A stretch of DNA of 17,583 nucleotides. It comes from a virus. Lineage: Duplodnaviria > Heunggongvirae > Uroviricota > Caudoviricetes. The notes below the pieces were generated by a model that saw nothing but the letters and a program-made list of their open reading frames with translations, was not told the origin of the DNA and did not search any database. Of the stretch, positions 4,789 through 12,026 are shown one piece after another (the first letter of the stretch is position 1; every line of letters starts with the position of its first letter). A program made the translations under genes and the position numbers. The DNA lies in IMG/VR virus record IMGVR_UViG_2585427735_000005; one strand, given 5' to 3'.

Positions 4789-5129
4789 TGGTTGCCTCCT
4801 TTGCGAATCTGTTCCGCCCATTCTTCTAGGGATTTCTCCGCATATTCACCGGACAGGCCATCAATCGGGTGTGGTTCATTAGCCAACTCTTCTTTCGCTG
4901 ACAGAATCATGCGTGTAACGTCGAAAACTTCACGTAAAGACTTATTGATAAATCCGTGATTGAAAGCCGCAGCAAGACGGCTTGCGGTATAGTTAATACC
5001 CTCGTTGCGAGCCTCAGCACGTACTTCATCGAATTTACGCACCAGATACTCAGCATTTGTTTCATTCACTTTCAGATCTCGTGGTACACATTTCCCGCGA
5101 AGAAACCCTTCCATTTCGAAAACATTCAT
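4785..5129 (-). CDS. Hypothetical protein, last gene of the yfdPQRS-like module (YfdS-like)
   Basis: About 114 aa. The ATG at 5129 overlaps the upstream stop (ATGA); the ORF track uses the ATG at 5135. The C-terminus ...EQIRKGGNQ is encoded by the recurring junction cassette. Size and position match YfdS of CPS-53; recollection only. Confidence 0.5.
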   Translation of the reverse strand: MNVFEMEGFLRGKCVPRDLKVNETNAEYLVRKFDEVRAEARNEGINYTASRLAAAFNHGFINKSLREVFDVTRMILSAKEELANEPHPIDGLSGEYAEKSLEEWAEQIRKGGNQ

Positions 5130-5662
5130 GCGCATTTGCGTAACTCCGATAACTCGTTAAAACGTTCCATAAACATCCCGTAGGCATGGCCTGGCGACAG
5201 TGGAATCACTTTGAACATCTCTGTTGCCGGGATACCTTCCAGTACAGGCCAGAAAGAGCTATCATCAAGCCCGAGATCGCGGCGTTCGGTTGCCAGCATG
5301 ATGAGATCGGCATATTTCACGGGCGTGCTCATAACCGGGGGTAACCCGTATTTCTCACGGATTACGGCGTCTATTTTTTCTTCCATCCGTTTATAGTCAG
5401 GAAGAAGGCGTTTCAGTGGAGCGGGAATATCCTGGCAATACGCTTCTGTTGCATCATGCATTAACGCTTCAAAAGCAAATTCCTGCGGCACCAGCTGGCT
5501 GCAAAGCACCGCATGTTGGGCGACACTGTAGAAGTGAGAAAGATGACCGGCAAAGCGGCAGATATTTGAAAGGGAAACCGCGATATCGTTAATCACGATG
5601 TCGTCTTTATTTATCCTGTCATAATAAAAATGCTTCCCGGAAAAAGTTTTAATAAATGACAT
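5126..5662 (-). CDS. HD-domain phosphohydrolase (YfdR-like 5'-deoxynucleotidase family)
   Basis: Contains the HD motif in ...EALMHDATEAY... with His-containing stretches upstream (FAGHLSHFYSVAQHAV). I prefer the ATG at 5662, preceded by GGAGAA, over the GTG at 5689 used by the ORF track; this gives 178 aa, the length I recall for YfdR. Confidence 0.6.
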   Translation of the reverse strand: MSFIKTFSGKHFYYDRINKDDIVINDIAVSLSNICRFAGHLSHFYSVAQHAVLCSQLVPQEFAFEALMHDATEAYCQDIPAPLKRLLPDYKRMEEKIDAVIREKYGLPPVMSTPVKYADLIMLATERRDLGLDDSSFWPVLEGIPATEMFKVIPLSPGHAYGMFMERFNELSELRKCA

Positions 5663-5789
5663 TTTGTTCTCCACGTATATGCGCTGCACCGCGCTGAGTT
5701 TGGGTAAAAGGAAGCCCTCACCATCCGGTGATTATTGAGTTAATTACGTTTCCATAAATGCCCCCGCAGGGGCATTTGCAGTAATGAAA

Positions 5790-6614
5790 TCAGGCGGTGA
5801 AAGTACCAATAAAGGTTTCTACTTTGCTGTCTTTGAATTTCTTAACAAGCAGATCACGAAATTCGTTAGCCATATCTTCCTGCACCGCTTCCAGCTGAAT
5901 AATGCGCATAACCAGTACAGGACGATCGCCAGTGATAATGCTGAGGCGTAATTTAAACGGACGTTCTTTCAGACCTTCAAACGGAACGCATTTAAATTCA
6001 AATGTCACTGGCATAATGTCTTTGGTCTTCGCTTCGACAGATTCCATCAGGGAGCGTTTGCCGCTGAAGTCATTATCTTCAAAATCAGCGGTCTGGTTTG
6101 CTTCAATCGTGATTTTACGGACTGCCGCAGCCGCTTTTGTTGCCTGAATAGCGTCACCATTAGCATCAAAGCCCACAAGGTAGTCGGCCCAGTCTTCAAT
6201 CCATTCTGCCAGTGACTTCTGGGAGTTACGCTCGCCGTTAACAGACAACAGGGCAGAGAACGGTGCTGTCTTTTTCAGTTTGAGAGTGGCGGTGTTATCT
6301 GCGTGACCTGGTTCATCAATAGTACCCAGGTTAAGTACACTGACGGCACGCATATTATCAGCATCGATAAAGCAGCGGGTGCCTTCATCTGCAAGATCTT
6401 TAGAATAACGGGTAAAGTCATCGATGCTGGCAGTGGAAAGCGCACCACGGAAACGGAAGCGATTTAAATTAAATTTTTCCAGATCATGAATGCGGAAATT
6501 CTCAGGCAATGCCACAGCATCGGCACCAATCTTACTGATAATTTCATTAACACCCTGAGCAGAAATAAGGGCATGGATTTGATTAATTGCGGTTGCGTCT
6601 AAGTTCTGAGACAT
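5790..6614 (-). CDS. DUF2303-like protein (YfdQ-like)
   Basis: 274-aa ORF sitting between the YfdP-like and YfdR-like genes, with the same length and position as YfdQ of CPS-53. Assignment is by synteny and length recollection, not by a recognised motif. Confidence 0.5.
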
Positions 6615-7042: not shown

Positions 7043-7090
7043 TTTGCTGCTCCTCATCATATCGACCCTGCAAGATCGGTTGGTTTATCC

Positions 7091-7179
7091 ACAAAACAGA
7101 GAAGAACACCTGCGGTGGCAGCCGCCAGGATGGATTGGGTTATGAGCCCGTCGGCCGGTGATGCTCTTCTCTGTTTTGT
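7091..7179. repeat. Perfect 15-bp inverted repeat (ACAAAACAGAGAAGA at 7091-7105, TCTTCTCTGTTTTGT at 7165-7179) with a 59-bp GC-rich spacer
   Basis: Read directly from the sequence. It lies in the leader just upstream (in transcription) of the YfdP-like start; the spacer holds GC-rich imperfect palindromes (CTGCGGTGGCAGCCGCCAG). Confidence 0.6.
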
Positions 7180-7765: not shown

Positions 7766-8458
7766 TTAATTGTGTCGCTTAAGGGTTTGTGACTGACTGA
7801 TTAAGACCTTTCCAAAGACCATAAACCGATGTTCGTTTTCGCTGGTAATTCCCCATTCGCGGTAAATCTGATTATCAGAAATTACCAGCAGTTTATCAGG
7901 TATCATTTGCAGTCGTTTGACGTAAATTTTATCATCAAAACCAAATACATATATACCATCCCCATCAAACTGATTGATACTGATATCAACGAAGATGAGA
8001 TCTCCTGGCTCAATGGTTGGACACATACTGTCCCCACGAACGTTGATAACTTTAATGTGATTTGCTGGTCGTCCACCAAACATCGATACAGCATTATCAG
8101 TTCTGTATTCAATGGCATGAATCACATCAATGACATCACCGCCCTGGATAAGGCCATTTCCCGCACTGGCACTGACATCCAGCATTTCAATACGGAATAC
8201 ATCCTTCACCTGCGCAACATCCTCACTAATACTGTTTTTACATACAGTATTACTTTTGAGGTCTGAGGTAAAGAGATCAGCAATATCAACACCTAAGCTC
8301 CTGGCAATATTACTCAGGGCTTGTTCAGTGAATTGTTTCTGCTTACCTGTTTCGAGGCGCGAGATATTCGCCGCATCCACTCCTATTGCTTCAGCGAGAT
8401 CGGCGATTTTCATGTTCTTCGCCTGGCGAAGTTGTCTGACTCGATTTCCTATGTTCAT
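7766..8458 (-). CDS. cI: CI-type phage repressor (N-terminal HTH, C-terminal S24/LexA-like autopeptidase)
   Basis: 230 aa. The N-terminus has an XRE-type HTH (MKIADLAEAIGVDAANISRLETGKQ). The C-terminus has an Ala-Gly candidate cleavage site (SASAGNG), catalytic Ser in GDSMCPTI and Lys in YVKRL about 38 residues later, as in LexA/lambda CI. It is divergent from cro. Confidence 0.9.
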   Translation of the reverse strand: MNIGNRVRQLRQAKNMKIADLAEAIGVDAANISRLETGKQKQFTEQALSNIARSLGVDIADLFTSDLKSNTVCKNSISEDVAQVKDVFRIEMLDVSASAGNGLIQGGDVIDVIHAIEYRTDNAVSMFGGRPANHIKVINVRGDSMCPTIEPGDLIFVDISINQFDGDGIYVFGFDDKIYVKRLQMIPDKLLVISDNQIYREWGITSENEHRFMVFGKVLISQSQTLKRHN

Positions 8459-8816: not shown

Positions 8817-9366
8817 TCATCACTGGAAAGTGGAAAAACAGCCTGAGTGGTACGTGAAAGCTGTCAGAAAAACTATCGCGGCGTTGCCGGGGGGTTACGC
8901 TGAAGCTGCTGAGTGGCTGGATGTAACAGAGAACGCATTATTCAACCGCCTTCGTGCAGATGGCGATCAGATTTTCCCGCTGGGATGGGCAATGATTTTA
9001 CAACGTGCTGGTGGAACTCACTTCATTGCTGACGCTGTGGCGCAGTCTGCAAATGGCGTCTTTGTGTCTCTTCCTGACGTCGAGGATGTGGACAACGCCG
9101 ATATTAACCAGCGTCTGCTGGAAGTCATCGAACAGATCGGGAGTTACTCAAAGCAGATTCGTTCGGCAATCGAAGATGGGGTAGTGGAACCGCATGAGAA
9201 GACAGCAATTAACGACGAACTGTATCTTTCAATTTCGAAGCTCCAGGAGCATGCAGCACTGGTCTACAAAATCTTCTGCGCTCCAGAAAAGAGTAACGCC
9301 CGCGAGTGTGCAGCTCCGGGCGTCGTGGCGTCGATTGCTTCTGGTTGTGGAGAAACTAACGCATGA
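8809..9366 (+). CDS. CII-like / YdaT-family regulatory protein (putative)
   Basis: 185 aa with a GTG start 6 nt after AGGAGG, overlapping the cro 3' end. Its position right after cro and my recollection of YdaT/CII-like proteins of Rac-type prophages suggest this call. Not verified. Confidence 0.4.
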   Translation: MGNHHWKVEKQPEWYVKAVRKTIAALPGGYAEAAEWLDVTENALFNRLRADGDQIFPLGWAMILQRAGGTHFIADAVAQSANGVFVSLPDVEDVDNADINQRLLEVIEQIGSYSKQIRSAIEDGVVEPHEKTAINDELYLSISKLQEHAALVYKIFCAPEKSNARECAAPGVVASIASGCGETNA

Positions 9367-10514
9367 ATAGTTTAACGGCAAATAACCGTTTGTCGCAACA
9401 GCTGGTGGTCAGCGTCGCTGAACACCTGTTGTTACGGCATGAATGCAGATTACCAAATCACCTGGCTGTAAGTAACCACAGAGAACTTTACCTGACTGTG
9501 GGGGGCGAGTTGTGCAGGAACTTAACCGCTGGTTTCGTGACGGAAGAGGACTTTATGTTCATGTTATTCGTTGGGAGCCAGAAACACAGCGCGTTATCTA
9601 TCTTCGCAAAGACTACCCGCATGAGTGCTTTAGTCCTTTGTGGAAATTCAGGCGTGATTTTGTTGAGTGTGAAGGACCACCAGCATATTGATTCTGCAAT
9701 TCCGGGACGTTACACTGCTCAGGCACCTTATAAAGCGGGTGCCGGGCGTGGAAACCCGAAATTCAATATAGAGCACAACCGCGCTCATGCGGTTTTTTCG
9801 TGTCATGAGCATCGTTACGCCCAAATTATGGTGGGGCGTGCAGGGCCAACTTCGGTTGGGCCGGGTTCTATGTTGACCGGTATTTCCACCCCTGTACGTC
9901 TCACCACCTATATGGTCGTGGAAAGCCTTGGTGGTGAGTTCATTGAATTCAACATAGGGGCTGTCACCATGACTACTCTCCCAACCCAATCTCACCCTGA
10001 AATCACGATTATCAATGGTCGCGTTGTCACCACATCTCTTGCAGTAGCTAATTACTTTACTAAACGGCATGAGCGGGTTTTAGATAGAATTAGAAACCTC
10101 GAATGTTCCGCTGAATTTACTGAACACAATTTTGTGTTAAGTGAATACACCGACGCATCAGGCCGCAAACTCCCTTGTTACCAAATCACCCGCGACGGTT
10201 TTGCGTTTCTTGCCATGGGCTTCACTGGTAAACGTGCTGCCCGGTTCAAAGAGGCATACATAAATGCCTTTAACCAGATGGAAAAACTGCTTTCAAAGCC
10301 ATCCACGCTGAGCGATGCCGCAGATAACGCCAGCGTGCTTTACTCCCACCTGTCGGTAATCCACAAGGTCTGGCTGCAGCAGCTTTATCCCATGTTGGCA
10401 AAAGCCGAATCCCCGCTGGCTGTAAGTCTGTATGACCGCATCAACGACGCGGCGCTACTGGCCAGTCTCATAAATTTGTCGCTGAACCCTTCAGAGGTAA
10501 GGGGGCGCAAATGA
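9363..10514 (+). CDS. Rha-family phage regulatory protein, annotated with a roughly 200-codon N-terminal extension (true start may be the ATG at 9970)
   Basis: Residues from about 205 (ITIINGRVVTTSLAVANYFTKRHERVLDRIRNL...YQITRDGFAFLAMGFTGKRAARFKEAYINAFNQME) match the Phage_pRha signature, which normally lies at the N-terminus. The ATG at 9363 is ATGA-coupled to the upstream gene, but the extension has no recognisable features. Confidence 0.6.
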   Translation: MNSLTANNRLSQQLVVSVAEHLLLRHECRLPNHLAVSNHRELYLTVGGELCRNLTAGFVTEEDFMFMLFVGSQKHSALSIFAKTTRMSALVLCGNSGVILLSVKDHQHIDSAIPGRYTAQAPYKAGAGRGNPKFNIEHNRAHAVFSCHEHRYAQIMVGRAGPTSVGPGSMLTGISTPVRLTTYMVVESLGGEFIEFNIGAVTMTTLPTQSHPEITIINGRVVTTSLAVANYFTKRHERVLDRIRNLECSAEFTEHNFVLSEYTDASGRKLPCYQITRDGFAFLAMGFTGKRAARFKEAYINAFNQMEKLLSKPSTLSDAADNASVLYSHLSVIHKVWLQQLYPMLAKAESPLAVSLYDRINDAALLASLINLSLNPSEVRGRK

Positions 10515-10735
10515 TCCGGAATATTTTCAAACGGTTTACCAATCATACTTTCCGTTGTCCTCGTCCGGGTCAGTGGTACACCACGCCTGCAGGGCATGTT
10601 CTACGTGTTAGCCTGGTTGACCGTGAATGTCAGAAGGTGATTTGTGAACCGCTGGGCCGTAATTACCGCGTCAGTATGCCGCTTATAGCCTTTCGCTCCG
10701 GAAAAAACATGAAGCATCTCGGAGGTGCTGCATGA
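10511..10735 (+). CDS. Small hypothetical protein (74 aa)
   Basis: ATGA overlaps at both ends (with the Rha stop and the O-like start) indicate translational coupling inside the operon. Basic and Cys-containing; no domain recognised. Confidence 0.5.
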   Translation: MIRNIFKRFTNHTFRCPRPGQWYTTPAGHVLRVSLVDRECQKVICEPLGRNYRVSMPLIAFRSGKNMKHLGGAA

Positions 10736-11550
10736 GTATGGAGTTGATGGTTAAAGCGATGAAAATTCGAGTGGGAAATCCATTGCGAAAACTGGTTCTG
10801 ATTAAGCTGGCTGATAATGCCAGCGATCAGGGTGAGTGCTGGCCCAGCTACCAGCATATTGCTGACCAGTGCGAGATTAGCAAACGTTCTGTGATGAATC
10901 ATATTGCGGCCCTTTGTGAGTCCGGGCTGGTAAAAAAAGTCACCCGGAAAGGTGAAAAAGGTAACTCAAGTAATATCTATCTCCTTCATCTTGATGGTGC
11001 AGGAGATTCACTAGGGGGTAGTGCAAATAATTCACTATCTGGTGCAGCAAATTCACCAGGTAGTGCAGGAGTTGCACCAGGGGGTAGTGCAGGAGATTCA
11101 CCCAGAACCAGTCACTCTTTTGAACCAGTCAAAGAACCAGTCAATGAACCAATAGCTGTTGGTGCATCTGCTGATGAGTCTGTGCGAGTTCGTTCAAACC
11201 GACCGGAATACTCTCCGGAGTTTGAGCAGGCATGGCTGGCCTATCCAAAACGTGCTGGTGGCAATTCAAAATCTGCAGCCTTCAAAGCCTGGAAAGCCCG
11301 TTTGAATGAGGGGGTAAACCCCGAAACCATGCTGGAAGGTGTGAAACGCTACGCGGGCTGGGTATCTGCGATGGGTAACAGCGGCACACAATTTGTGAAA
11401 CAGGCTGTCACGTTCTTTGGCCCGGATCGTCATTTCGAAGAATCCTGGGAAGTTCCTGCGGTATCTGCAGTCAGACGCGAGGACCCGTACTTCAAAGCCA
11501 GTTACGACAACGTGGACTACAGCCAGATCCCGGAAGGATTCAGGGGGTGA
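10732..11550 (+). CDS. Replication initiator (lambda O-like: N-terminal HTH, Gly/Ser/Ala-rich linker encoded by iteron-like repeats)
   Basis: The N-terminus (LRKLVLIKLADNASDQGECWPSYQHIADQCEISKRSVMNHIAALCESGLVKK) resembles the HTH N-terminal domain of phage replication initiators. The central low-complexity linker is encoded by the direct DNA repeats below, as in lambda O where ori-lambda lies inside the gene. Confidence 0.6.
   Translation: MSMELMVKAMKIRVGNPLRKLVLIKLADNASDQGECWPSYQHIADQCEISKRSVMNHIAALCESGLVKKVTRKGEKGNSSNIYLLHLDGAGDSLGGSANNSLSGAANSPGSAGVAPGGSAGDSPRTSHSFEPVKEPVNEPIAVGASADESVRVRSNRPEYSPEFEQAWLAYPKRAGGNSKSAAFKAWKARLNEGVNPETMLEGVKRYAGWVSAMGNSGTQFVKQAVTFFGPDRHFEESWEVPAVSAVRREDPYFKASYDNVDYSQIPEGFRG
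10996..11153. repeat. Iteron-like direct repeats inside the O-like gene (candidate replication origin)
   Basis: Five copies of a roughly 17-20 bp unit, GGT(AGT)GCA(G/A)(G/C)A(G/A)(A/T)T(T/G)CAC(T/C), at 10996-11012, 11017-11036, 11041-11057, 11059-11078 and 11083-11102. These are followed by four copies of GAACCA(G/A)T at 11105-11114, 11122-11131, 11134-11143 and 11146-11153. Confidence 0.6.
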
Positions 11551-11552
11551 TC

Positions 11553-12026
11553 ATGAGTCTTTTGAATGAAGTTCAGAAATTCATTGAAGCCCATCCGGGC
11601 TGTACTTCCGGAGACATTGCGGATGCTTTTGCAGGTTACTCACGGCAGAGCGTACTGCAGTCAGCAAGCAAGTTACGTCAGAGTGGGCGTGTGGCTCACC
11701 GTTGTGAAGGGGATACACGCAGACATTTCCCGCGTCTGAGTGAGAGAGCGCAGGAGCCGGAACCACAACCAGTTCGTGAAACCAGACCTGTGCGCAATTT
11801 CTATGTCGGCACTAACGATCCCCGGGTGATTTTGTGCCTGACCCGCCAGGCTGAAGAACTGGAGTCAAGAGGCTTATACCGTCGTGCTGCAACCGTGTGG
11901 ATGGCGGCATTCCAGCCAGAACGAAACAATTTTCTGGCACGTCGTGAGCGGTGCTTACGGAAAAGCAGCAAGCGCGCTGCATCGGGTGAAGAGTGGTATC
12001 TGTCAGGGAATTACGTGGGGGCTTAA
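11553..12026 (+). CDS. Hypothetical protein with a possible PerC-like C-terminal region
   Basis: I prefer the ATG at 11553, preceded by AGGGGG, over the GTG at 11547. The C-terminal LESRGLYRRAATVWMAAF...RRERCLRK resembles the conserved core of PerC/Pch-type activators as I recall it. Low certainty. Confidence 0.4.
   Translation: MSLLNEVQKFIEAHPGCTSGDIADAFAGYSRQSVLQSASKLRQSGRVAHRCEGDTRRHFPRLSERAQEPEPQPVRETRPVRNFYVGTNDPRVILCLTRQAEELESRGLYRRAATVWMAAFQPERNNFLARRERCLRKSSKRAASGEEWYLSGNYVGA

What the first reader, a model, noticed from the sequence alone, without database searches (positions are those of the whole stretch)
10996..11153. Iteron-like repeats embedded in the replication initiator gene: candidate origin
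Five copies of a roughly 20-bp unit and four copies of GAACCA(G/A)T lie inside the O-like gene, where they encode a Gly/Ser/Ala/Pro low-complexity linker. This mirrors phage lambda, where the ori-lambda iterons sit inside the O gene and are bound by O protein. No P, DnaC-like or DnaB-like helicase loader gene follows, which is unusual for this module type; the downstream gene is a PerC-like hypothetical instead.
Basis: partly seen in the sequence, partly recalled or inferred. Interest (0 to 1): 0.5.

Follow-up and report, generated by a model that had tools for sequence, protein, structure and literature searches.

The report
Replication origin inside prophage initiator gene
The repeats are real and are almost certainly the replication origin of an SfV/ST64B-type ("Eru6") lambdoid prophage, laid out like the phage lambda origin inside its own initiator gene; the kind is known, but this widespread family's origin, its invariant GAACCAGTCA box and its lack of a helicase-loader gene do not seem to have been described.

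Summary
Observation confirmed. Window 10995-11103 holds five 19-bp dyad-symmetric units (T[A/G]GTGCA-N5-T[T/G]CAC[C/T]N) spaced 24, 21, 21 and 24 bp. Window 11105-11153 holds three exact and one degenerate GAACCAGTCA. Both lie in the linker-coding part of ORF 10732-11550, which encodes an HTH_36 winged-helix protein that PHROGs labels a replication initiator.

The constraint acts on the DNA, not on the peptide:
- The same 10-mer is read in two reading frames.
- Across 63 non-redundant relatives, third-codon-position identity is 0.83 in the box and 0.43 in the HTH domain.
- The arms are palindromic.
- Copy number varies in frame: 4-7 dyads and 2-5 box units among 80 near-identical relatives.
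- The dyad half-site changes with the recognition helix in several lineages (...M-R-H-I with GTGAC; ...[MI]-[NS]-H-I with GTGCA/GTGAA; K-S-A-V with TGTGC).

Nearly all 74 relatives are followed directly by a lambda-P-like, DnaC/IstB-like or DnaB gene, which fixes the protein's role as an O analogue. This window has no such gene. Instead the protein ends in SQIPEGFRG, 8 of 9 identical to the invariant C-terminal tail of host DnaT, which suggests it recruits host DnaB-DnaC.

Verdict: a lambda-style origin, a new variant of a known kind. No binding or replication assay exists.

The parts
10732..11550 (+). Replication initiator gene (272 aa). It has an N-terminal HTH_36 winged-helix domain, a repeat-encoded linker, a helical C-domain and a DnaT-like tail.
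   Evidence: Pfam HTH_36 scores 44.1 bits against a cut-off of 25. phrog_270 'replication initiation protein' E 3e-88. About 98% nt identity to SfV orf39, mEp460, cdtI and Stx2a_WGPS2. Relatives are followed by P-like, DnaC-like or DnaB genes.
10732..10994 (+). Coding region of the N-terminal DNA-binding domain (aa 1-88). The presumed recognition helix is around aa 47-60 (CEISKRSVMNHIAA).
   Evidence: The Pfam HTH_36 match covers aa 17-67. Helix residues covary with the dyad half-site across the family.
10995..11013 (.). Iteron 1: TGGTGCAGGAGATTCACTA
11019..11037 (.). Iteron 2: TAGTGCAAATAATTCACTA
11040..11058 (.). Iteron 3: TGGTGCAGCAAATTCACCA
11061..11079 (.). Iteron 4: TAGTGCAGGAGTTGCACCA. 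It matches the pattern on both strands with 0 mismatches.
11085..11103 (.). Iteron 5: TAGTGCAGGAGATTCACCC. Its right arm abuts the conserved box.
11102..11153 (+). Family-wide conserved box with direct repeats of GAACCAGTCA at 11105, 11122 and 11134, plus degenerate GAACCAAT at 11146. It is A+C-rich on the top strand. It marks the boundary between the swappable N- and C-terminal modules.
   Evidence: Present in 78 of 80 genome loci from many gammaproteobacterial genera. Third-position identity is 0.83 against 0.43 in the HTH domain. Copy 1 is read as AGA-ACC-AGT-CAC and copies 2-4 as GAA-CCA-GTC. AT skew is +0.33 to +0.36 and GC skew down to -0.44. Mosaic matches end here.
11194..11451 (+). 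Coding region of the conserved helical C-domain (aa ~155-240; YSPEFEQAW..YPKRAGGNSK..KAWKAR..FVKQA.TFFGPDRHF).
11521..11547 (+). C-terminal tail SQIPEGFRG, matching the C-terminus of host DnaT (SQIPPGFRG).
   Evidence: BLASTP 8/9 identical, E 0.009. IPxGFRG is invariant, with x variable, in 107 DnaT orthologues. It is also conserved, with the same variable position, in 80 phage relatives. The same type of tail precedes a DnaC orthologue in L091 and L092.

Best explanation
Window 10995-11153 is the cis-acting replication origin of an SfV/ST64B/'Eru6'-type lambdoid prophage, embedded in the gene of its own initiator (10732-11550).

Inferred mechanism:
1. Dimers of the protein's N-terminal winged-helix (HTH_36) domain bind the five 19-bp dyad iterons. 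These are spaced about two helical turns apart and would build an O-some-like nucleoprotein complex.
2. The adjoining invariant box of GAACCAGTCA direct repeats is a second origin element. It is tied to this N-domain subfamily and is most likely the site where the duplex is opened and the helicase enters, or a second binding site for the conserved part of the initiator.
3. Because no phage loader gene is present, the initiator's C-terminal domain and its DnaT-like tail (SQIPEGFRG) recruit the host DnaB-DnaC complex directly.

What is shown here: the anatomy, DNA-level selection, copy-number variation, helix/half-site covariation, and the gene context in relatives.

What is inferred: binding, unwinding, and host-loader recruitment.
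For: (a) The repeats are non-random and unique in the window.

(b) The constraint is on the DNA.
- Against Aeromonas phage AsXd-1, the HTH domain carries many synonymous differences, while the repeat region has essentially only non-synonymous ones (one synonymous CCA/CCC codon).
- Vibrio phage D67, at 48% aa identity, keeps TCACCCAGAACCAGTCACTCTTT.GAACCAGTCAA.GAA identical.
- In 63 non-redundant relatives, third-position pairwise identity is 0.43 in the HTH domain and 0.83 in the box.
- In the dyads, invariant columns fall on codon position 3. Spacings of 22 and 23 bp put 43 of 300 dyads in another reading frame.
- GAACCAGTCA is read in two frames within this one gene.

(c) Every family member examined that retains the conserved box carries 3-7 tandem dyads at the same place.

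(d) The half-site covaries with the recognition helix in independent lineages.
- SV[MI][NS]HI pairs with GTGCA/GTGAA.
- MRHI, MRKI or MRAV pairs with GTGAC (D67, D96a, L135/L146, L147, mEp013).
- KSAV or RSTVRK pairs with TGTGC/TGTAGG (S137, ZF40, L161, L149 group).
- F403 pairs with GGGCA.

(e) Copy number varies in frame among near-identical relatives. There are 4-7 dyads and 2-5 box units, and cdtI carries an extra 66 bp.

(f) Gene context. Of 74 relatives, 18 are followed at once by lambda-P-like genes (PF06992), 26 by DnaC/IstB-like ATPases (often followed by DnaB), and 18 by a conserved 265-aa ORF.

(g) The layout matches lambda. Lambda's iterons lie at nt 349-433 of O with spacing 20, 24 and 23. 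Here they lie at nt 264-372 with spacing 24, 21, 21 and 24.

(h) Mosaic breakpoints fall at the end of the box, so N-domain, iterons and box are inherited as one unit.

(i) Tail. It is 8/9 identical to DnaT. IPxGFRG is invariant in DnaT orthologues. Tail type tracks loader type, even on one and the same C-domain. In L091 a DnaT-type tail sits directly upstream of a gene 51% identical to E. coli DnaC.
Against: - There is no experimental evidence (binding, autonomous replication, marker frequency) for this family in the literature I could search. The Eru papers state that nothing is known about replication of these modules.
- There is no strongly AT-rich unwinding tract. The box is only about 55-60% A+T and ranks at the 81st-82nd percentile of helix instability. 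The least stable 40-mer of the gene lies just left of iteron 1 (10955-10994) and shows no DNA-level conservation.
- The role of the box is unassigned. It matches no DnaA-box or IHF consensus.
- The covariation counts are not corrected for shared ancestry.
- The function of the extreme DnaT tail is unknown, and no direct contact of DnaC with PriA, PriB or DnaT has been shown.
Confidence: 0.8

Rival explanations
1. The repeats are only a coding-level low-complexity expansion of a flexible Gly/Ser/Ala/Pro linker, produced by slippage, with no function as DNA.
For: The region does encode a low-complexity linker. Copy number varies in frame, as slippage would produce.
Against: - Third codon positions are as conserved as positions 1 and 2: 0.83 in the box against 0.43 in the HTH domain.
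- Invariant dyad columns fall on codon position 3.
- The same motifs occur in two reading frames and encode different peptides.
- The units are palindromic, which has no meaning for a peptide.
- The rare AGA codon and A/T-ending codons are kept in GC-rich Pseudomonas prophages.
Confidence: 0.03
2. The dyads are operator sites through which the HTH protein regulates transcription (autoregulation or a roadblock within the early-right operon). The true origin would lie elsewhere.
For: HTH_36 is a generic DNA-binding fold. The Pfam hits include MarR and ArsR-type regulators at weak scores. Dyad sites are typical of operators.
Against: - No promoter-like site occurs on either strand in 10300-11700.
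- An array of 3-7 phased sites inside the coding region, always at the domain linker, is the lambda, P22 and L origin pattern.
- The gene is coupled to P, DnaC or DnaB genes in relatives.
- PHROGs groups it with replication initiators.
- No other repeat cluster or candidate origin was seen in the window.
Confidence: 0.08
3. The invariant GAACCAGTCA box is kept not for origin function but as a 'linker' of homology. It would promote recombination between the N-terminal (specificity) and C-terminal (loader-matching) modules of different phages.
For: Mosaic matches end at the box. E. coli hits cover nt 1-407 only, and phage protein hits end at aa 136-142. The same N-domain, iterons and box are joined to at least five different C-termini.
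Against: About 40 bp kept at 0.82 identity from Pseudomonas to Vibrio, Shewanella and E. coli argues for direct selection, since these hosts are too diverged for frequent exchange. The internal direct-repeat structure and variable copy number are not needed for a homology patch. The box is absent from other initiator subfamilies in the same hosts (D96a, L171). A boundary at a functional origin is also what lambda-type hybrids show (my own knowledge of lambda/phi80 hybrid O genes).
Confidence: 0.06
4. The module is a defective or domesticated remnant that no longer initiates replication, as proposed for DopC, so the repeats are relics.
For: E. coli K-12 CPS-53 carries a truncated relative, yfdO. 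Brezellec 2017 describe HTH_36 plus DnaT-motif proteins that have lost their iterons.
Against: The same gene at about 98% identity is present in viable, plaque-forming or inducible phages: SfV, mEp460, Ayreon, cdtI, ST64B and Stx2 phages. The ORF is intact. Iterons and box are under purifying selection.
Confidence: 0.03

Closest known systems
ori-lambda inside gene O of phage lambda, with the analogous origins in P22 gene 18 and phage L gene 18
   Same: - Tandem dyad iterons of about 19 bp lie inside the initiator's own gene, in the linker after the N-terminal DNA-binding domain.
- Spacing is 20-24 bp against 21-24 bp here.
- The iteron sequence differs between phages along with the N-terminal domain, while the adjoining segment is shared (for lambda, P22 and L; here).
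- The C-terminal part is matched to the helicase-delivery partner. Relatives of this protein are followed by lambda-P homologues.
   Different: - No sequence homology to lambda O is detectable here: no PF04492 hit and hhalign probability below 5%.
- The segment next to the iterons is not a strongly A+T-rich tract. It is a box of GAACCAGTCA direct repeats.
- No P, DnaC or DnaB gene follows in this window.
- The protein ends in a DnaT-like tail.
'Eru6' replication unit of Shiga-toxin phages (BMC Genomics 2022, PMC8951638; type phage Stx2a_WGPS2)
   Same: The gene order next to cI is the same: a Rha/Ash protein followed by an HTH_36 protein. The initiator gene is 98.3% identical to that of the type phage (H8/H9).
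   Different: That work classifies gene content only. It names no origin, iterons or loader mechanism, and says replication of Eru phages is unstudied.
DopC/DopE and HTH_36 plus DnaT-C-motif proteins (Brezellec et al. 2017, PMC5509034)
   Same: An HTH_36 N-domain is joined to a DnaT-related C-terminal element and derives from lambdoid O-like genes. That paper's HHpred places lambda O's own N-terminus in HTH_36.
   Different: DopC has no iterons and is not an origin. It is followed by a P-like gene. Here the iterons are intact, only the last ~9 residues resemble DnaT, and no loader gene follows.
E. coli DnaT (primosomal protein, PF17948) and the dnaT-dnaC operon
   Same: The C-terminal motif IPxGFRG is the same. 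In prophages L091 and L092 an initiator with this tail sits directly upstream of a DnaC orthologue, mirroring dnaT-dnaC.
   Different: There is no homology outside the tail. No PF17948 hit was found and no PDB sequence hit to DnaT. DnaT acts at forks with PriA and PriB, not at a sequence-specific origin.
Iteron origins of theta plasmids (RepA, RepE, TrfA, Pi)
   Same: Phased direct repeats are bound by a winged-helix initiator. There may be a second, conserved element next to the iterons where the duplex opens.
   Different: Plasmid iterons are usually intergenic and asymmetric and are bound by monomers. Here the units are dyads inside the coding sequence. No WH1-WH2 Rep family hit was found.

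Membership tests
Lambda-type origin (iterons inside the initiator gene) | Three or more tandem dyad-symmetric repeats of ~18-20 bp, spaced about two helical turns apart, inside the initiator's coding sequence | tested here: met
   Five dyads spaced 24, 21, 21 and 24 bp, with 0 of 200 shuffles reaching this count. Lambda is spaced 20, 24 and 23 bp.
Lambda-type origin (iterons inside the initiator gene) | The repeats lie in the linker between the N-terminal DNA-binding domain and the C-terminal partner-binding domain | tested here: met
   HTH_36 covers aa 17-67, the repeats encode aa 89-141, and the conserved C-domain spans aa ~155-240.
Lambda-type origin (iterons inside the initiator gene) | The repeat sequence is specific to the initiator's N-terminal domain (type specificity) | tested here: met
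   The half-site covaries with the recognition helix in several lineages. This is comparative evidence only, not corrected for phylogeny.
Lambda-type origin (iterons inside the initiator gene) | A strongly A+T-rich unwinding region lies next to the iterons | tested here: inconclusive
   The box is 55-60% A+T and ranks at the 81st-82nd percentile of instability. The least stable 40-mer lies left of the array. In 41 of 74 relatives the least stable 40-mer of the gene coincides with the box.
Lambda-type origin (iterons inside the initiator gene) | A helicase-delivery gene (P, DnaC or DnaB type) lies directly downstream | tested here: not met
   The next genes are PerC/YfdN, Dam and RusA. No such gene is found elsewhere in the window. 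The feature is met in nearly all relatives.
Lambda-type origin (iterons inside the initiator gene) | The initiator binds the repeats, and the fragment supports autonomous replication | not testable with these tools
   Needs EMSA or footprinting and a replication assay.
Lambda O protein family (Pfam PF04492 Phage_rep_O) | A significant match to the family profile or to lambda O itself | tested here: not met
   No PF04492 hit at E <= 0.01. hhalign of A1 and A2 against lambda O gives probability 4% and 1.6%. Published HHpred links lambda O's N-terminus to HTH_36, so remote homology is possible but was not shown here.
HTH_36 (PF13730) winged-helix proteins | A profile match above the gathering score | tested here: met
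   44.1 bits against a cut-off of 25, covering aa 17-67.
DnaD-like C-terminal (DDBH2) domain | Sequence or fold match to the DnaD C-terminal domain | tested here: inconclusive
DnaT (PF17948) | Homology over the DnaT domains | tested here: not met
   Only the last 9 residues match, 8/9. No Pfam hit and no PDB sequence hit.
Eru6 replication unit of Stx phages | A Rha/Ash-domain gene followed by an HTH_36 gene on the cro side of cI, with near-identity to the type phage | tested here: met
   Rha plus Ash at 9363-10514 and HTH_36 at 10732-11550. 98.3% identity to Stx2a_WGPS2. The definition is in PMC8951638.

The most novel reading that the evidence does not exclude
The last 7-9 residues of the initiator (IPxGFRG) are a short linear motif copied from, or shared with, host DnaT, and they dock the DnaB-DnaC complex, most simply DnaC itself. 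This would let a lambdoid phage initiate at its own origin with no loader gene. More generally, the extreme C-terminal tail of these initiators would be the determinant that selects the loader type (P, IstB/DnaC, DnaB).

If so, the same peptide in DnaT is the missing contact by which the PriA-PriB-DnaT preprimosome recruits DnaB-DnaC, a step the recent structural and biochemical papers still call unknown. In addition, the invariant GAACCAGTCA box would be a sequence-specific opening or loading element recognised by the conserved part of the initiator.
Probability: 0.3. Interest if true: 0.75.

Novelty: new variant of a known kind. Interest (0 to 1): 0.5.

Why it matters
This replication module is common. 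A match to the gene is found in 2689 of 5426 complete E. coli genomes, 897 of them with a near-full-length copy. It occurs in serotype-converting Shigella phages, cdt phages and Shiga-toxin phages (type Eru6), for which the literature says replication is uncharacterised.

Locating the origin and the initiator's specificity determinants gives three practical things:
- a handle on phage induction and toxin gene dosage;
- a set of natural, orthogonal initiator/iteron pairs with a readable recognition rule;
- a way to predict replicon incompatibility among co-resident prophages.

The loader-less design with a DnaT-type tail offers a concrete, cheap test of how DnaB-DnaC is recruited outside oriC.

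Tried and rejected
- Sequence search of the whole protein against PDB chains gave only spurious low-complexity hits.
- NCBIfam gave nothing above cut-off.
- hhalign of the N- and C-domain alignments against lambda O found no homology.
- Promoter and terminator scan: no promoter on either strand in the origin region. This rejects the idea of an antisense promoter despite the TTGACT words in the box.
- Rfam found only a chance miRNA hit well below threshold.
- DnaA-box and IHF consensus searches found none in the region.
- Full-text searches for the motifs, for SfV or ST64B origins, and for HTH_36 with iterons turned up no description of this origin. The SfV genome paper is not held.
- The IMG/VR scan returned only near-identical N-domains. 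It was useful for copy number but not for diversity.
- The upstream 74-aa ORF has no similarity to the equally placed ZF40 gp13.
- I first read the blastp label 'EcDnaT' for L091 and L092 as homology of the whole C-domain. Pairwise alignment shows it is only the last 19 residues.
- PerC/YfdN as a hidden loader is rejected, because phage cdtI has the same initiator and tail without it.
Full report
WHAT IS THERE

ORF 10732-11550 (+) encodes a 272-aa protein. Between nt 264 and 422 of this gene lie two repeat arrays.

The first array has five 19-bp units of the form T[A/G]GTGCA-N5-T[T/G]CAC[C/T]N. They start at 10995, 11019, 11040, 11061 and 11085, so the spacing is 24, 21, 21 and 24 bp. Four of the five also match the pattern on the opposite strand, which makes each unit a dyad. 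The pattern occurs nowhere else in the window. It is expected 0.2 times by chance, and 0 of 200 shuffles reached the observed count. The repeat finder and TRF report the same periods.

The second array follows directly. GAACCAGTCA occurs exactly at 11105, 11122 and 11134, and a degenerate GAACCAAT lies at 11146-11153.

Together the arrays encode the Gly/Ser/Ala/Pro-rich segment at aa 89-141.

WHAT THE GENE IS

The N-terminus matches Pfam HTH_36 at 44.1 bits against a cut-off of 25, with a weak DnaD_N match. No Phage_rep_O match appears.

PHROGs places the whole protein in phrog_270, 'replication initiation protein' (E 3e-88). Its C-terminal third falls in phrog_1701, 'DnaD-like helicase loader', and phrog_9327, 'primosomal protein'.

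The gene is about 98% identical to the 'replication protein' of several phages:
- Shigella phage SfV (orf39);
- coliphages mEp460, Ayreon, cdtI and 1720a-02;
- several Stx2 phages.

Salmonella phage ST64B encodes an 88%-identical protein.

It is very common. A match occurs in 2689 of 5426 complete E. coli genomes, and 897 of these hold a near-full-length copy.

The gene order is cI (7766-8458, -), cro, a CII-like gene, a Rha/Ash protein, a 74-aa ORF, this gene, PerC/YfdN, Dam, RusA, KilA-N. This corresponds to the 'Eru6' replication unit defined for Shiga-toxin phages. Its type phage, Stx2a_WGPS2, is hit H8/H9. The paper defining Eru6 states that nothing is known about how Eru phages replicate, and it mentions no iterons.

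ARE THE REPEATS A DNA ELEMENT OR A PEPTIDE EXPANSION?

Five independent lines point to DNA.

(i) Reading frame. The first GAACCAGTCA is read as A-GAA-CCA-GTC-AC in the frame AGA ACC AGT CAC (Arg-Thr-Ser-His). The next copies are read GAA CCA GTC (Glu-Pro-Val). So one DNA word encodes two different peptides.

(ii) Codon alignment with relatives.
- Aeromonas phage AsXd-1 is 69% identical at the protein level. Its HTH domain carries many synonymous differences, whereas its repeat region has essentially only non-synonymous ones (one synonymous CCA/CCC codon).
- Vibrio phage D67 is 48% identical, yet keeps TCACCCAGAACCAGTCACTCTTT.GAACCAGTCAA.GAA letter for letter.

(iii) Family-wide statistics. A scan of one genome per species gave 80 loci from many genera. 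These include Pseudomonas, Enterobacter, Aeromonas, Shewanella, Xenorhabdus, Marinomonas, Proteus, Erwinia and Aliivibrio.
- 78 of the 80 keep the box CCCAGAACCAGTCACTCTTTTGAACCAGTCAATGAACC at the same place.
- In 63 non-redundant sequences, pairwise identity at third codon positions is 0.43 in the HTH domain, counting only codons whose amino acid is conserved.
- In the box core the same measure is 0.83, equal to the other codon positions.

(iv) A weight matrix from 300 dyads in 63 loci gives T R G T G M A N5 T K C A C Y. The invariant columns fall on codon position 3. Spacings of 22 and 23 bp are frequent, which puts 43 dyads in a different reading frame.

(v) The units are palindromes, a property with no meaning for a peptide.

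The low-complexity linker is therefore a by-product of the DNA element.

ARE THE DYADS BOUND BY THE PROTEIN ENCODED AROUND THEM?

This cannot be shown by computation, but the comparative signal is the one expected of initiator-iteron pairs.

Every family member examined that retains the conserved box has 3-7 tandem dyads just after the HTH domain. The half-site changes with the presumed recognition helix:
- Helices of type ...RSV[M/I][N/S]HI... go with GTGCA or GTGAA.
- Helices with Arg at that position (MRHI, MRKI, MRAV) go with GTGAC. This holds in Vibrio phages D67 and D96a, in Erwinia and Izhakiella prophages (L135, L146), in Aliivibrio prophages (L147, L159, L163), and in coliphage mEp013.
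- Helices of type C-E-C-S-K-S-A-V or ...RSTVRKHI... go with TGTGC or TGTAGG. Examples are S137, ZF40, L161 and the L149 group.
- Stx phage F403 (type Eru5) has GGGCA-N5-TGCCC.
- Aggregatibacter phage S1249 has yet another unit.

These cases are documented. The associations are not corrected for shared descent, although several recur in distant hosts.

Among 80 near-identical relatives from IMG/VR, the copy number ranges from 4 to 7 dyads and from 2 to 5 box units, always in frame. Phage cdtI has an exact 66-bp, three-unit duplication.

IS THE PROTEIN A REPLICATION INITIATOR?

Gene context answers this. I examined the 74 relatives that had enough downstream sequence. In nearly all, an ORF begins within a few bases of the initiator's stop codon. 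These partner ORFs fall into classes:
- lambda-P-like (PF06992): 18;
- DnaC orthologues: 12;
- IstB-like ATPases, often followed by a DnaB helicase: 14;
- a conserved 265-aa ORF in Pseudomonas: 18;
- a few others.

Phage ZF40 has a DnaB-like helicase next to its copy, and S137 has a primase/helicase.

So the N-domain, iterons and box form an origin-recognition module that is combined with different C-termini matched to different helicase-delivery partners. This is exactly the logic of lambda O and P.

Mosaic matches end at the box. E. coli hits cover nt 1-407 only, and phage protein hits end at aa 136-142. The module is therefore inherited as a unit.

COMPARISON WITH LAMBDA

In lambda the four annotated iterons lie at nt 349-433 of O, spaced 20, 24 and 23 bp. 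They are followed by a purine-rich A+T tract. The layout here is the same, but with three differences.

- No sequence homology. None is detectable to lambda O. Published HHpred does place lambda O's N-terminus in HTH_36.
- A different adjoining segment. It is not strongly A+T-rich: 55-60% A+T, and the 81st-82nd percentile of helix instability in the window. It is, however, strand-asymmetric, with AT skew about +0.35 and GC skew down to -0.44.
  - In 41 of 74 relatives the box is the least stable 40-mer of the gene.
  - In this window the least stable stretch is 10955-10994, left of the array. That stretch shows no DNA-level conservation.
- No loader gene. None follows the initiator.

The box matches no DnaA-box or IHF consensus. 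It is absent from more distant initiator subfamilies living in the same hosts (D96a; the O157/CPS-53 type L171). I therefore infer that it works with the conserved part of this N-domain subfamily rather than with a universal host factor. It is most likely the opening or helicase-entry element. That step is inference.

THE MISSING LOADER

No P, DnaC/IstB, DnaB or primase domain appears in any ORF I scanned in the window.

PerC/YfdN is not a hidden partner. Phage cdtI has the same initiator followed directly by dam.

The protein ends in SQIPEGFRG. E. coli DnaT ends in SQIPPGFRG, which is 8 of 9 identical (E 0.009 for the pair).
- In 107 DnaT orthologues, IPxGFRG is invariant with only x variable.
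- In the 80 phage relatives the same position varies, as A, E, T or V.

Across the family, the extreme tail tracks the partner class:
- ...DPEDPLI and ...W.DF[IL] go with P-like genes;
- DYG.S.CNW and ...ANF go with IstB-like plus DnaB genes;
- RQAG.RNEYL goes with the Pseudomonas ORF.

The same helical C-domain as in this window carries three different tails according to partner.

In Enterobacter-group prophages L091 and L092, an initiator with a DnaT-type tail (13 of 19 identical to DnaT) lies directly upstream of a gene 51% identical to E. coli DnaC. This reproduces the host dnaT-dnaC arrangement.

A second E. coli initiator type (L171; the K-12 CPS-53 yfdO remnant is its truncated form) carries its own dyads (GTCAGATTCTGAC), the same tail, yfdN downstream, and again no loader.

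My reading is that the tail is a short docking peptide for the DnaC-type loader, and that these E. coli phages use the host's DnaB-DnaC. This is a hypothesis. The function of DnaT's last residues is not established: truncation to residue 153 only weakens cooperative ssDNA binding. No direct contact of DnaC with PriA, PriB or DnaT has been shown. The 2026 preprimosome structures leave DnaB/DnaC recruitment open and favour the DnaT N-domain.

ALTERNATIVES

- A pure coding expansion is excluded by the frame, third-position and palindrome evidence.
- An operator or roadblock role is unlikely. There is no promoter on either strand, the array has the lambda-type position, and the gene is coupled to loader genes in relatives.
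- No RNA family matches the region.
- The box could be a homology patch for module shuffling. This fits its position at the mosaic boundary, but it does not explain the conservation across very distant hosts or the internal repeats.
- A defunct relic is unlikely, because viable phages carry the same gene.

NOVELTY AND SCORE

The following are not described in anything I could search:
- the origin of this particular and very common module;
- the invariant GAACCAGTCA box shared by prophages of many gammaproteobacterial genera;
- a readable helix/half-site relationship;
- the loader-less design with a DnaT-type tail.

I rate the finding a new variant of a known kind, with interest 0.5. The tail hypothesis, if true, would deserve more.

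Noticed in passing
window 11521-11547 (last 9 codons of the initiator): The C-terminal peptide SQIPEGFRG is 8/9 identical to the C-terminus of host DnaT. IPxGFRG is invariant in 107 DnaT orthologues and in 80 phage relatives, and the same middle position is the variable one in both sets.
   Followed up: partly
L090-L169 (genome loci), L004, L006, L007, L174: The last ~7-10 residues of these initiators fall into classes that track the type of the adjacent gene: P-like, IstB/DnaC-like plus DnaB, or a Pseudomonas 265-aa ORF. This holds even when the preceding C-domain is the same, which suggests a tail-encoded partner code.
   Followed up: partly
L091:2501-4197 and L092 (Enterobacter-group prophages): An HTH_36 initiator with iterons, the box and a 19-residue DnaT-like tail is followed immediately by a gene 51% identical to E. 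coli DnaC. This is a phage copy of the dnaT-dnaC arrangement.
   Followed up: partly
L171:2135-3076 (E. coli O157:H7 prophage); L172:2369-3076 (CPS-53 yfdO remnant in an E. coli genome, strain THB42-F3): A different winged-helix initiator has its own 15-bp-period dyads (GTCAGATTCTGAC / GTCAAAATCTGAC) in its linker and no GAACCAGTCA box. It has the same final 25 residues as the window protein and the same yfdN-dam neighbours. About 1800 E. coli genomes match the window gene only over nt 744-819.
   Followed up: partly
L002:2501-3385 (phage cdtI): An exact in-frame 66-bp duplication of three iterons gives 8 dyads and a 294-aa protein. This phage also lacks the PerC/YfdN gene between the initiator and dam.
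   Followed up: yes
window 10511-10735 (+): A 74-aa ORF (phrog_1153, no known function) overlaps the stop codon of the Rha/Ash gene and the start codon of the initiator. It is conserved in cdtI. It has no Pfam hit and no similarity to the equally placed ZF40 gp13.
   Followed up: partly
window 9363-10514 (+): A 383-aa protein with Ash and Rha domains lies between the CII-like gene and the replication gene. The Eru papers treat it as part of the 'replication unit', but nothing here links it to replication.
   Followed up: no
window 5126-5689 (-) and 5790-6614 (-): A YfbR-like 5'-deoxynucleotidase gene and a DUF2303 gene lie in the early-left region. They are the same pair as yfdR and yfdQ of the K-12 CPS-53 cryptic prophage (compare L172).
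   Followed up: no
window 8109-8138: TRF reports 3.3 copies of a 9-bp unit (TCAATGACA) inside the cI repressor ORF (7766-8458, - strand). Score 39; not examined.
   Followed up: no
window 7085-7093: A perfect DnaA-box consensus TTATCCACA lies between the early-left genes and cI. The count in the window is at chance level (2 found, 1.8 expected).
   Followed up: no
L097:3417-4214 and equivalents in 18 loci, mostly Pseudomonas: A conserved ~265-aa ORF with no Pfam hit overlaps the stop of the initiator in the position where other relatives have P or DnaC. It is a candidate new helicase-loader family.
   Followed up: no
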